A stretch of DNA of 41,232 bases from a virus (Duplodnaviria; Heunggongvirae; Uroviricota; Caudoviricetes). Location of the stretch: IMG/VR virus record IMGVR_UViG_2877263951_000005; one strand, written 5' to 3'. The position numbers and the translations under genes are program-made. The notes under the pieces are model-generated. The model searched no databases, was not told where the DNA came from, and saw only the letters and a list, made by a program, of their open reading frames with translations. Shown in pieces: positions 34,359 through 35,129 of the stretch (the first letter of the stretch is position 1; every line of letters starts with the position of its first letter).

Positions 34359-35129
34359 GATGGCATCCTCGAGTGATAAGTTAATTAACTCACCACCGAG
34401 GTTTTCCACGACCATAAGGGTGGTGAGACGTACAGGGGTGGAAATACCGGTCACTCGAGAACCCGGCCAGTCTTGCGACTGCCCTGCACATCCCACCATA
34501 ATTTGAATGGAGCTGTGCATTACGCATAAAAAAACCGCTTCAGCGCGGCTATGCGCTCGAGTAACGTTCGGGTTTCCACGCCCGGCCCCCGTTTTATGAG
34601 GTGCAGATGCACTATAATTCCACCCGTTCTGGTTTTCAATAGCTACATTCAACATTTTCTCTTACCTTTCATCACCGAAGTGAACTTTGTTGATGCGGTG
34701 CCTGGTGCCTCCAGGTGACGTTAACCAGTTAACAATTAACGCCGGATACAGGGAAACCCATAACCACCCGATACGTGGGAACTAATCGCTTTTTAACTGT
34801 TCCGCGTGCGCTCAGCCGCATTCACCGCATCACAAAATTCACTTTAAAAAGGGCGGACATCAGCCAGCAATGAAACTGATGCCGCCAAAGGTACCAATCA
34901 ACATGGAGTGTTGTGGCGTGGTTGTCACTTAAGCGTATGGTCAACCTGACAACCCGGTGTCCTCAACGGGGAAGGAATAACTCCGCCATACTTACCGCCG
35001 CGTCATTTCGCGTTGTGTGCCTGCTTTTAACTACGTCAGGCGAGGTGGTTCCTGTTATTCCCCAACAACAAGAAATTTGTATAATCTGAATACCCCAACA
35101 ATAAGAAGAGTGAGCAAGTGATGTATTAG

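What the first reader, a model, noticed from the sequence alone, without database searches (positions are those of the whole stretch)
34359..35129. About 770 bp with no ORF of 60 aa or more on either strand, rich in palindromes, upstream of the Rha/kilR-type operon
The region contains CTCACCACC...GGTGGTGAG, CCTGGTGCCTCCAGG, three closely spaced TTAAC half-sites (GTTAACCAGTTAACAATTAAC), a GC-rich hairpin near 34520-34570 and an extended -10 promoter (TGTATAAT) at about 35078 firing rightward. In a prophage early region this is where immunity operators or regulatory RNAs lie. No repressor gene is present, so it may be a remnant immunity region or encode a structured RNA.
Basis: inference. Interest (0 to 1): 0.5.

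Follow-up and report, generated by a model that had tools for sequence, protein, structure and literature searches.

The report
Prophage small-RNA cluster upstream of Rha
The "empty" 770 bp is a leftward-reading block of already known prophage regulatory RNAs (a DicF variant, a structured spacer, IsrK and a C4 antisense RNA) that gate translation of the Rha antirepressor, sitting in a decayed Shigella prophage, so it is real but ordinary.

Summary
The sequence features are real, but every one of them lies on the minus strand and belongs to RNA, not to protein operators. Read in the direction of the Rha gene, the region holds four elements.

- **35012-34846:** a homologue of the E. coli K-12 Qin ydfC-dicF spacer, with a diverged DicF and its terminator.
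- **34844-34678:** the structured dicF-dicB spacer, which is weakly STnc100-like.
- **34639-34528:** a sigma-70 promoter followed by IsrK (Rfam 59.6 bits) and its terminator.
- **34503-34416:** a C4 antisense RNA (Rfam 76.7 bits).

The two exposed C4 elements match sites inside IsrK (a1/b1). They also match sites in the Rha leader (a2/b2), and b2 covers the Rha ribosome-binding site.

Across 40 distinct variants from E. coli prophages, the C4 loops and both target sets change together (5-6 a alleles, 11 b alleles). This is the P1/P7 immI and Gifsy-1 IsrK logic.

The locus here is decayed. Rha is frameshifted, IS2 cuts the operon, and the repressor and early promoter are gone. The rightward TGTATAAT is an orphan promoter whose gene has been deleted.

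Verdict: a new member of a known kind, of low to moderate interest.

The parts
34356..34358 (-). Start codon of the Rha-family antirepressor gene. The gene is a frameshifted pseudogene here, with a 1-nt insertion at about 34059.
   Evidence: PF09669 Phage_pRha, 1.8e-28. Alignment to an intact E. coli Rha shows the insertion. Coordinates.
34366..34376 (-). b2 target (UCACUCGAGGA). It is fully complementary to the C4 b' loop and includes the Rha Shine-Dalgarno sequence GAGGA (34370-34366).
   Evidence: Inverted repeat I6. An 11-bp duplex of -16.7 kcal/mol. A complementary run of at least 10 bp in all 40 variants.
34364..34401 (-). Leader hairpin (CCUCGGUGGUGAGUU / AACUUAUCACUCGAGG) that sequesters the Rha Shine-Dalgarno sequence.
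   Evidence: Fold of 34430..34359: -26.5 kcal/mol, z = -3.9.
34400..34412 (-). a2 target (GUCGUGGAAAACC; core GUGGAAA). It is complementary to the C4 a' element.
   Evidence: Direct repeat D2 and inverted repeats I5/I8. Co-variation in 40 variants.
34416..34503 (-). C4 antisense RNA. The b' loop UUCUCGAGUGA lies at 34461-34451 and the a' element UUUCCACCCC at 34444-34435. An AUG at 34499-34497 is in frame with Rha.
   Evidence: RF01695, 76.7 bits against a gathering score of 45. MFE -44 kcal/mol, z = -5.0. 11 pairs with compensatory changes, against 0 of 500 shuffles.
34528..34604 (-). IsrK sRNA. It carries a1 (GGGCGUGGAAACCC, 34583-34570), b1 (UUACUCGAG, 34564-34556) and an intrinsic terminator (stem 34550-34533 plus U7).
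   Evidence: RF01394, 59.6 bits against a gathering score of 50. Terminator scan. Co-variation of a1/b1 with C4.
34611..34639 (-). Sigma-70-type promoter of isrK (TTGAAA-17-TATAGT). The predicted start is about 34604, which is IsrK position 1.
   Evidence: Promoter scan, 10 of 12 matches. The sequence is invariant in the E. coli relatives. The pattern was found in 106 IMG/VR stretches.
34642..34655 (-). ATG at 34655, which opens the 99-codon frame that reads through isrK and C4 into Rha. PGAP annotates Rha from this codon in E. coli.
   Evidence: The frame is stop-free in 38 of 40 variants but shows no codon-position bias. It hits PF10554 Phage_ASH.
34678..34844 (-). Structured spacer, homologous to the K-12 dicF-dicB intergenic region. 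It has a 21-bp closing stem (34844-34823 with 34700-34678). Its inner hairpins contain CCUGGAGGCACCAGG (34715-34701) and the TTAAC repeats (34742-34717). It is weakly STnc100-like.
   Evidence: blastn to Qin. RF02076 36.5 bits, below the gathering score of 47; K-12 scores likewise at 34.4. MFE -69.2 kcal/mol, z = -4.9. 46 variants with invariant stems and a hypervariable centre.
34846..34899 (-). DicF-like sRNA variant with a terminator hairpin and U-run.
   Evidence: RF00039 38.8 bits, E = 1e-6, below the gathering score of 48. It sits in the position of K-12 dicF within 95%-identical flanks. Terminator scan. z = -3.1. The identical variant occurs in 8 IMG/VR loci.
34900..35012 (-). Homologue of the 5' part of the long (190-nt) DicF precursor of Qin.
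   Evidence: blastn to NC_000913.3 1649263 onward. The 190-nt and 53-nt DicF species are described in 10.1101/2023.04.14.536235.
35013..35129 (+). Variable spacer carrying an orphan rightward promoter-like site (TGTATAAT, 35078-35085), flanked by direct repeats CCCCAACAAYAAGAA (35060-35074 and 35093-35107).
   Evidence: It is conserved in E. coli A19 and RMDEC465 and in S. flexneri SFBU1023, where a plus-strand gene follows. The gene is absent from the window.

Best explanation
The region is the non-coding middle of the leftward early operon of a Qin/Rac-like lambdoid prophage. It encodes a string of regulatory RNAs on the minus strand.

**Upstream half (35012-34678).** This is the dicF segment. 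It holds a DicF-family sRNA with its own terminator, followed by the highly structured spacer that precedes dicB in K-12 Qin.

**Downstream half (34639-34359).** This is an RNA immunity switch for the Rha antirepressor, of the phage P1 immI / Gifsy-1 isrK type. The proposed sequence of events is as follows.

1. A sigma-70 promoter starts transcription at about 34604.
2. Most transcripts stop at the intrinsic terminator and give the 77-nt IsrK. IsrK displays the target copies a1 and b1.
3. Read-through transcripts continue into the 88-nt C4 RNA. Two of its segments are exposed: the b' hairpin loop and the a' single strand.
4. These segments pair with a2 and b2 in the leader. b2 covers the Rha Shine-Dalgarno sequence, which also sits in a local hairpin, so Rha is not translated.
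5. IsrK, which carries the same target sequences, competes for C4 (or for the C4 part of the long transcript). This relieves the block, as shown experimentally for Gifsy-1.

**What is shown and what is inferred.** Shown here: the family matches, the folds, the promoter and terminator, the complementarity, and the three-way co-variation. Inferred from P1 and Gifsy-1: processing of C4, translational repression, and derepression by IsrK.

**State of this copy.** The protein output is dead. Rha is frameshifted, IS2 sits downstream, and the DicA-type repressor and early promoter have been replaced by IS fragments. Only the isrK promoter can still drive IsrK and C4. The DicF-like gene has lost its known promoter.
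For: **Family matches.** C4 scores 76.7 bits and isrK 59.6 bits, both above their gathering scores. The DicF-like and STnc100-like hits have E-values near 1e-6.

**Promoter and terminator.** A promoter and a terminator lie in the right places on the minus strand.

**Complementarity.** The exact repeats link a', b', a1, b1, a2 and b2, and b2 overlaps GAGGA 7 nt before the ATG.

**Co-variation between C4 and its targets.** The 40 distinct variants carry 5-6 a alleles and 11 b alleles in 16 combinations, and the antisense element and both targets change together. Mean duplex energies (kcal/mol), cognate against non-cognate, are:

| Pairing | Cognate | Non-cognate |
|---|---|---|
| a'-a1 | -14.3 | -6.7 |
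| a'-a2 | -9.6 | -4.5 |
| b'-b1 | -11.5 | -4.0 |
| b'-b2 | -15.3 | -6.1 |

**C4 internal structure.** The helices are 99% paired, with 11 pairs that change on both sides. No shuffle (0 of 500) reaches that value.

**Second module.** The window holds a second module at 8609-8810 with a different, internally consistent specificity.

**Homology to Qin.** There is 83% identity to the Qin ydfC-dicF-dicB spacer, and it ends 18 nt before the dicB start codon.

**Synteny.** Intact E. coli prophages show HTH repressor - DUF1391 - ydfB/C - [this region] - Rha - DicB/Kil - exonuclease - xis - int.

**Published mechanisms.** Gifsy-1 IsrK/orf45/AnrP and STnc1160, with the analogy to the P4 CI RNA (PMC4825925). 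P1 c4-icd-ant (PMC8198154). The c4 and c4-a1b1 motifs (PMC2864571). DicF processing (10.1101/2023.04.14.536235).
Against: - There are no expression data for this locus or this organism.
- The IsrK part misses the c4-a1b1 model (18.3 bits against a gathering score of 46.7), and its fold is no better than shuffled sequence (z = -0.1).
- The DicF-like and STnc100-like hits are below their gathering scores.
- The small ORF (orf45) that Gifsy-1 requires is not conserved in its own frame here: it is 2, 27, 28 or 45 codons long. The coupling step may therefore differ.
- The Rha frame is open through the whole module, which the simple P1 model does not explain.
- The Rha gene is broken, so any present-day function must lie in the RNAs alone.
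Confidence: 0.85

Rival explanations
1. Dual-use leader. The isrK-C4 module lies inside a genuinely translated reading frame. On transcripts coming from the early (dicBp-like) promoter, ribosomes start at ATG 34655, or at the AUG at the 5' end of C4 (34499). They read straight through into Rha. This melts the RNA structures and bypasses the RNA immunity, and may yield an N-terminally extended 'Ash-Rha' protein.
For: - The Rha frame is stop-free across about 93 codons in 38 of 40 distinct variants. The other two frames average 6.0 and 3.7 stops, and the shuffle probability is 0.012.
- The conserved AUG at the 5' end of C4 is in frame with Rha, and the same holds in the window's other module.
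- ATG 34655 occupies the position that the dicB start takes in Qin, just after the structured spacer.
- PGAP annotates the long form.
- The translation hits Pfam Phage_ASH and the N-termini of five PHROG families.
- In Gifsy-1, translation of orf45 through the C4-like RNA is needed for AnrP synthesis (PMC4825925).
Against: - Variable sites in the leader show no third-codon-position excess (29/66, 25/65, 30/66), whereas Rha proper does (56, 49 and 87 of 100).
- The amino-acid sequence changes radically with each a/b allele.
- The protein-family hits may only reflect gene callers reading conserved RNA in an open frame.
- No NCBIfam model covers the extension.
Confidence: 0.2
2. Remnant protein-operator immunity region. 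The palindromes and TTAAC repeats are binding sites for a lost repressor that controlled divergent promoters.
For: - The region is palindrome-rich and lies in a prophage early region.
- A rightward -10-like element flanked by direct repeats lies at 35060-35107.
Against: - In intact relatives the repressor/Cro-like pair and its operators lie 2-3 kb to the right, beyond ydfA-C.
- Each quoted palindrome falls inside a conserved RNA element whose stems fold on the minus strand.
- The TTAAC cluster and CCTGGTGCCTCCAGG are also present in the K-12 dicF-dicB spacer, which is transcribed as part of the dicBF mRNA.
- The only good promoter match points leftward, into isrK.
Confidence: 0.03
3. Inert relic. 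The sequences are recognisable, but nothing here is expressed or functional in this Shigella any longer.
For: - Rha is frameshifted.
- IS2 and other IS fragments flank the locus, and the early promoter and repressor are missing.
- There is a 606-bp deletion at the right edge.
Against: - The isrK promoter, the terminator, C4 and all six pairing elements are intact.
- The same 300-nt sequence occurs in four IMG/VR viral contigs, which share module variant m05 with the window.
- The RNAs need no protein product in order to act in trans on a co-resident prophage of the same specificity.
Confidence: 0.25

Closest known systems
Gifsy-1 isrK-orf45(STnc1160)-anrP locus of Salmonella Typhimurium (Hershko-Shalev et al. 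2016, PMC4825925)
   Same: - An isrK promoter, a 77-nt IsrK with a leaky intrinsic terminator, a stable C4/CI-like RNA downstream, then an antirepressor gene.
- IsrK sequences are complementary to the downstream RNA.
- An AUG sits at the start of the C4-like RNA.
   Different: - This module sits in the early-left operon after DicF, not after the Q-like antiterminator. The window's other copy, at 8609-8810, has the Gifsy-1 arrangement.
- The regulated gene is Rha-family.
- The orf45-equivalent frame is fused in frame to Rha instead of ending before it. The separate 45-codon ORF is not conserved.
- Rha is a pseudogene here.
immI operon of phages P1/P7 (c4-icd-ant1/2; Citron and Schuster 1990, as cited in PMC8198154)
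   Same: - A C4 antisense RNA (Rfam RF01695) with two recognition elements.
- Target copies lie both upstream (a1/b1) and downstream (a2/b2).
- The downstream copy overlaps a ribosome-binding site that controls an antirepressor.
- Specificity alleles give heteroimmunity.
   Different: - There is no icd gene; b2 covers the antirepressor's own ribosome-binding site.
- A terminator separates a1/b1 from C4, so a1/b1 is released as a separate sRNA.
- The host element is a lambdoid prophage rather than a P1-type plasmid prophage.
- Control of the promoter by a C1-type repressor was not seen.
P4 immunity (seqA - CI RNA - seqC)
   Same: - The same three-part layout of target, antisense RNA and target, an analogy drawn in PMC4825925.
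- The translated module hits Pfam Phage_ASH. From memory, I take that family to derive from the P4 ash ORF in that region.
   Different: - P4 CI acts by causing transcription termination. Here the target covers a Shine-Dalgarno sequence.
- The link to P4 rests on a protein-family proxy and on my recollection, not on a direct RNA comparison.
dicF and the dicF-dicB spacer of the E. coli K-12 Qin prophage
   Same: - Window 35012-34681 aligns to NC_000913.3 1649263-1649591 at 83% identity, with near-identical flanks, the same terminator architecture and the same structured spacer.
   Different: - The DicF core is the most diverged part (38.8 bits against 76.7 for K-12).
- The loop keeps AGUUUC but has lost the CUCCG anti-Shine-Dalgarno stretch. 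From memory, that stretch pairs with ftsZ.
- dicB is replaced by the isrK-C4-Rha module.
- The dicBp promoter is absent from the window.
STnc100 / PasD prophage sRNAs (Rfam RF02076; Zhu, Shabalina and Storz 2026 preprint)
   Same: - The spacer matches model positions 22-154, including the CACCNGGAGGCACCNGGCACC hairpin.
- It lies in a prophage context.
   Different: - The score is below the gathering threshold (36.5 against 47).
- The 3' third of the model is missing.
- There is no own promoter or terminator here.
- The K-12 dicB leader scores equally weakly.

Membership tests
C4 antisense RNA (Rfam RF01695) | Covariance-model score at or above the gathering threshold over the full model | tested here: met
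   76.7 bits against 45, model positions 1-87 of 87, at 34503..34416(-)
C4 antisense RNA (Rfam RF01695) | Long closing stem with two inner hairpins, supported by compensatory changes | tested here: met
   MFE -44 kcal/mol, z = -5.0. Helices 4 and 5 are 99% paired, with 11 pairs changed on both sides, and 0 of 500 shuffles reach that value.
C4 antisense RNA (Rfam RF01695) | Two exposed elements (a', b') complementary to targets upstream (a1/b1) and downstream (a2/b2), the latter at a ribosome-binding site | tested here: met
   b2 (34376-34366) includes the Shine-Dalgarno sequence GAGGA. Co-variation is seen in 40 variants.
C4 antisense RNA (Rfam RF01695) | Excision from a precursor (RNase P at the 5' end) and repression of the downstream gene in vivo | not testable with these tools
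   Needs northern or primer-extension analysis and reporter assays.
IsrK (Rfam RF01394) | Covariance-model score at or above the gathering threshold | tested here: met
   59.6 bits against 50, model positions 1-77 of 77, at 34604..34528(-)
IsrK (Rfam RF01394) | Own promoter and a Rho-independent terminator, followed by a C4/STnc1160-like RNA and an antirepressor gene | tested here: met
   Promoter at 34639-34611 and terminator at 34550-34528. C4 and Rha lie downstream.
IsrK (Rfam RF01394) | Hfq binding, and trans-activation of antirepressor translation | not testable with these tools
   These are experimental properties, reported for Gifsy-1 in PMC4825925.
c4-a1b1 motif (Rfam RF03163) | Covariance-model score at or above the gathering threshold | tested here: not met
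   18.3 bits against 46.7 at 34617..34565(-). The window's other copy passes at 52.2 bits. The a1/b1 complementarity itself is present.
DicF (Rfam RF00039) | Covariance-model score at or above the gathering threshold | tested here: not met
   38.8 bits against 48, E = 1e-6. K-12 dicF scores 76.7.
DicF (Rfam RF00039) | Orthologous position between ydfC and the next gene of a Qin-like early operon, with a terminator hairpin | tested here: met
   Flanks about 95% identical to Qin. Terminator present. Synteny in E. coli relatives.
DicF (Rfam RF00039) | Complementarity to the ftsZ ribosome-binding region | tested here: inconclusive
   Duplex predictions were no better than with shuffled sRNAs, even for K-12 DicF. 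By eye, the variant keeps AGUUUC but lacks CUCCG.
STnc100 (Rfam RF02076) | Covariance-model score at or above the gathering threshold over the full model | tested here: not met
   36.5 bits against 47, model positions 22-154 of 206
Repressor-operator immunity region of a lambdoid prophage | Divergent repressor/Cro genes with repeated operators that overlap their promoters | tested here: not met
   No repressor ORF lies within or next to the region. In relatives the HTH pair lies 2-3 kb away. The palindromes lie inside RNA elements.

The most novel reading that the evidence does not exclude
The RNA immunity module is deliberately kept inside an open reading frame that runs into the antirepressor gene. 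The same 300 nt would then serve two roles.

- When transcribed from its own promoter, it acts as an sRNA / antisense-RNA switch.
- When transcribed from the prophage early promoter, it acts as a translated leader. Ribosome transit erases the switch.

The prophage could thereby tell 'uninduced' transcripts from 'induced' ones. The freely reassorting a and b recognition alleles (at least 16 combinations) would give each co-resident prophage a private channel.

A corollary is that Pfam Phage_ASH and several PHROG 'transcriptional regulator' N-termini would be translations of this RNA module.
Probability: 0.2. Interest if true: 0.55.

Novelty: new member of a known kind. Interest (0 to 1): 0.3.

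Why it matters
For this window it mainly settles the annotation. A stretch that looks empty, and that genome pipelines partly absorb into an over-long 'Rha' gene, is in fact four known kinds of prophage regulatory RNA.

More generally, the comparison gives a clean natural experiment. Recognition loops and both sets of targets swap together in many allele combinations, while the scaffold stays fixed. This supports RNA-RNA pairing as the basis of antirepressor control in common E. coli and Shigella prophages. It also suggests that co-resident prophages are kept heteroimmune at this level, and the window itself carries two modules with different specificities.

Finally, it flags a likely annotation problem. 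Protein families and gene calls appear to read through a structured-RNA locus.

Tried and rejected
- **ftsZ pairing of the DicF variant.** RNA duplex prediction between the DicF variants and the K-12 ftsZ leader gave energies no better than shuffled sRNAs, even for authentic DicF. It says nothing about ftsZ targeting.
- **Column-wise pair counts for the intermolecular pairings.** I dropped these for C4 with a2 and b2. MAFFT splits the a2 alleles around a 3-nt indel, and the b'-b2 register shifts between alleles. I used cognate against non-cognate duplex energies instead, and the pair-count tool only for intramolecular helices.
- **A conserved orf45 homologue.** The ORF 34527..34390 (45 aa) looked like the Gifsy-1 orf45, but it is cut to 2, 27 or 28 codons in most variants. 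I rejected it as a conserved gene.
- **Organism identification by exact junction match.** The junction sequence found nothing among the species-representative genomes. A shorter promoter pattern found the same locus in S. flexneri SFBU1023 and in one record labelled E. coli.
- **Operator interpretation of the TTAAC and CCTGG palindromes.** I rejected this because the palindromes are hairpins inside the conserved dicF-dicB spacer.
- **Structure prediction and large protein searches for the 'Ash-like' extension.** I did not run these. The codon-position test was cheaper and already argues against a selected amino-acid sequence.
- **Literature searches.** Searches for expression of isrK or C4 in Shigella found nothing specific.
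Full report
**What is there**

The finding spans 34359-35129. Its left edge is the first base after the start codon of a minus-strand Rha gene. That start codon is ATG 34358..34356, and the gene matches PF09669 at 1.8e-28. Its right edge is the last base before a multi-copy mobile-element end that begins at 35130. This 67-nt end is found in 4017 of 5426 complete E. coli genomes and is followed by an IS66 TnpA fragment. From memory it looks like an IS911-type inverted repeat; I did not verify the name.

The 'no ORF of 60 aa or more' statement is not literally true. 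The mechanical list has a 210-aa ORF at 34655..34023(-), which is the Rha frame extended 99 codons upstream. It also has a 71-aa ORF that crosses the mobile-element junction.

**Identity of the elements**

An Rfam scan of the whole window at gathering thresholds placed two families inside the finding, both on the minus strand. C4 antisense RNA lies at 34503..34416 (76.7 bits against 45). isrK lies at 34604..34528 (59.6 bits against 50). A permissive scan added a DicF-like hit at 34899..34851 (38.8 bits, E = 1e-6, below the gathering score of 48). It also added a partial STnc100-like hit at 34839..34686 (36.5 bits against 47).

The consensus scans put a sigma-70-type promoter (TTGAAA-17-TATAGT, 34639-34611) just upstream of isrK position 1. 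They put an intrinsic terminator at the isrK 3' end (34550-34533 plus a U-run) and another at the DicF-like 3' end.

- The 'GC-rich hairpin near 34520-34570' is the IsrK terminator.
- GGTGGTGAG (34419-34427) is the 3' strand of the C4 closing stem.
- CTCACCACC (34389-34397) lies in the leader hairpin that sequesters the Rha ribosome-binding site.
- CCTGGTGCCTCCAGG and the TTAAC cluster are two inner hairpins of a 167-nt domain closed by a 21-bp stem (MFE -69.2 kcal/mol, z = -4.9).

**Genomic context**

Part of the query matches in 5115 of 5426 complete E. coli genomes. In intact relatives the order is: HTH repressor pair, DUF1391 (ydfA), ydfB, ydfC, a variable stretch, this region, Rha, DicB or Kil, DUF1482, exonuclease, xis, int. 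This is the leftward early operon of a Qin/Rac-like lambdoid prophage.

Window 35012..34681 aligns to the K-12 Qin ydfC-dicF-dicB spacer at 83% identity. The flanks are near-identical and the DicF core is the most diverged part. The homology ends 18 nt before the dicB start codon, and there the isrK promoter begins. K-12's own dicF-dicB spacer gives the same weak STnc100 hit (34.4 bits). The 'STnc100-like' element is therefore simply the dicB leader homologue.

[quoted passage not shown] The window contains the equivalent of most of the 190-nt form, but not dicBp.

**The window copy is decayed**

- Rha carries a 1-nt insertion at about 34059.
- IS2 follows at about 33780, and a 73-aa ORF that I recognise as kilR lies beyond it (the IS2 and kilR identifications are from memory).
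- To the right, the repressor region is replaced by IS fragments, a tail-fibre assembly remnant and an ipaH gene.
- CssrB and the match to S. flexneri SFBU1023 (95% identity over 33455-35129) place the window in Shigella.

**How the downstream half works**

Exact repeats tie the parts together. The C4 hairpin loop b' (UUCUCGAGUGA, 34461-34451) and the single-stranded a' (UUUCCACCCC, 34444-34435) are complementary to two sets of targets.
- b1 (34564-34556) and a1 (34583-34570) lie inside IsrK.
- b2 (34376-34366) and a2 (34412-34400) lie in the Rha leader.

The b'-b2 duplex is 11 bp (-16.7 kcal/mol). It includes the Shine-Dalgarno sequence GAGGA, 7 nt before the ATG. The 9-mer TYACTCGAG occurs three times in 41 kb, all here, against 0.49 expected.

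To test whether the pairing is selected, I used the invariant promoter sequence to pull 106 stretches from IMG/VR. With the E. coli loci, these gave 40 distinct modules. They carry 5-6 a alleles and 11 b alleles in 16 combinations. In every module a1, a' and a2 agree with one another, and so do b1, b' and b2.

Mean duplex energies (kcal/mol) for cognate against non-cognate allele pairs are:

| Pairing | Cognate | Non-cognate |
|---|---|---|
| a'-a1 | -14.3 | -6.7 |
| a'-a2 | -9.6 | -4.5 |
| b'-b1 | -11.5 | -4.0 |
| b'-b2 | -15.3 | -6.1 |

The b'-b2 complementary run is at least 10 bp in all 40 modules.

Within C4, the closing stem and first hairpin are 99% paired, with 11 pairs changed on both sides. 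The shuffle mean is 3.2 and no shuffle (0 of 500) reaches 11. Slid controls give 0-3.

The window's second module, at 8609-8810(+), sits after a Q-like antiterminator as in Gifsy-1. It has yet another internally consistent specificity. The two modules in this genome are therefore heteroimmune.

This is the architecture described for P1/P7 immI, where C4 RNA is needed for full repression of ant (PMC8198154). It is also the architecture of the c4 and c4-a1b1 motifs (PMC2864571) and of the Gifsy-1 isrK locus. In Gifsy-1, terminator read-through gives a translationally silent isrK-orf45-anrP mRNA. Short IsrK activates that mRNA in trans, and a stable processed RNA (STnc1160) corresponds to the C4 position. 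The authors also drew the analogy to the P4 CI RNA with seqA and seqC (PMC4825925).

I therefore take the mechanism to be as follows. C4 blocks the Rha ribosome-binding site, which also sits in a local hairpin (z = -3.9). IsrK, which carries decoy targets, competes for C4. The pairing and its selection are shown here. Processing, repression and derepression are inferred from the two model systems.

**An unexplained feature**

The 45-codon ORF that starts after the IsrK terminator, which looked like the Gifsy-1 orf45, is not conserved: it is 2, 27, 28 or 45 codons long. By contrast, the Rha frame is stop-free through the whole module in 38 of 40 variants. The other two frames average 6.0 and 3.7 stops, and the shuffle probability is 0.012. 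The conserved AUG at the 5' end of C4 (34499) is in that frame, and this also holds in the window's other module.

- PGAP annotates Rha from the ATG equivalent to 34655.
- The translation hits Pfam Phage_ASH at 2.8e-14, and the C4 part maps to profile positions 49-97 in both modules.
- It also hits the N-termini of five PHROG families.
- Yet variable sites show no third-codon-position excess in the leader (29/66, 25/65, 30/66), whereas Rha proper does (56, 49 and 87 of 100).

My reading is that the amino-acid sequence is not selected and that these protein families are largely translations of the RNA locus. Keeping the frame open may still matter for ribosome transit, as translation of orf45 does in Gifsy-1. 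This is the most novel reading that the data leave open.

**The right end**

Positions 35013-35129 are conserved only in some relatives. TGTATAAT (35078-35085) has a perfect -10 hexamer. Its TG is one base out of the extended -10 register and it has no -35, so the scan did not call it. Direct repeats CCCCAACAAYAAGAA flank it.

In E. coli A19 and RMDEC465 and in S. flexneri SFBU1023, a plus-strand gene of unknown function (phrog_1244) starts about 45 nt downstream. In the window, 606 bp that include that gene are missing, and the mobile-element end abuts directly. The promoter reading is plausible, but here it is an orphan.

**Verdict**

All four elements belong to, or are clear relatives of, described families. 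The mechanism follows well-studied precedents. This copy is in a degraded prophage. I rate it a new member of a known kind, interest 0.3. The allele co-variation and the open-frame question are the only parts that go beyond routine annotation.

Noticed in passing
window 8609-8810 (+), with 7915-8589 and 10039-10686: A second isrK / c4-a1b1 / C4 module lies directly after a Q-like antiterminator ORF, which is the Gifsy-1 arrangement. Its recognition sequences differ (a' ACGCCAA, b' CCGUAC), and its own a1/b1 and a2/b2 match them. The downstream gene (ATG 8863) is interrupted by an IS at about 8913 and resumes as an ORF6N-domain remnant. Four tRNA genes follow at 10895-11205.
   Followed up: partly
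window 34362-34655 (-) and 8730-8912 (+): Translating the isrK-C4 RNA module in the frame of the downstream gene hits Pfam PF10554 Phage_ASH (2.8e-14, and 23 bits for the other copy). It also hits the N-termini of PHROGs 995, 821, 6928, 3960 and 29966. RefSeq annotates E. coli Rha proteins with this 98-aa extension. These protein families may be translations of a structured-RNA locus.
   Followed up: partly
window 34359-34637 (-) and 40 related modules: The reading frame continuous with Rha is stop-free in 38 of 40 distinct variants, while the other two frames carry about 4-6 stops each. Yet variable sites show no third-codon-position bias. The frame is kept open without a coding-type substitution pattern. 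This is unexplained.
   Followed up: yes
window 35060-35107 (+); L114 1560-2290: A perfect -10 hexamer (within TGTATAAT) is flanked by two copies of CCCCAACAAYAAGAA. In S. flexneri SFBU1023 and two E. coli strains a plus-strand gene of unknown function (phrog_1244) follows. The window has a 606-bp deletion that removes the gene and joins the promoter to a mobile-element end at 35130.
   Followed up: partly
window 34678-34844 (-) and 46 related sequences: The structured dicF-dicB-type spacer has an almost invariant 21-bp closing stem and invariant 3' hairpins. Its central 30-60 nt are hypervariable and differ completely between prophages. This is reminiscent of a swappable seed region in the STnc100/PasD sRNA family.
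   Followed up: partly
window 34851-34899 (-) and IMG/VR loci L006-L111: At least eight different DicF core sequences occupy the same slot between near-identical flanks. The window's variant recurs unchanged in 8 viral contigs. It keeps AGUUUC in the loop but lacks the CUCCG stretch of K-12 DicF.
   Followed up: partly
window 33746-34358 (-): The Rha gene has a 1-nt insertion at about 34059 relative to intact E. coli homologues. This splits it into ORFs of 112 and 104 aa. IS2 follows at about 32450-33780, and a kilR-like ORF lies at 32200-32421.
   Followed up: yes
window 38420-38602 (+), 5488-5662 (+), 24976-25092 (-): Three other Rfam hits score above their gathering thresholds elsewhere in the window. 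CssrB (151.6 bits) lies next to an ipaH gene (36576-38291, minus strand). There is also a sok antitoxin RNA (118.1 bits) and an ALIL frameshift pseudoknot of an IS3-family element (120.2 bits).
   Followed up: no
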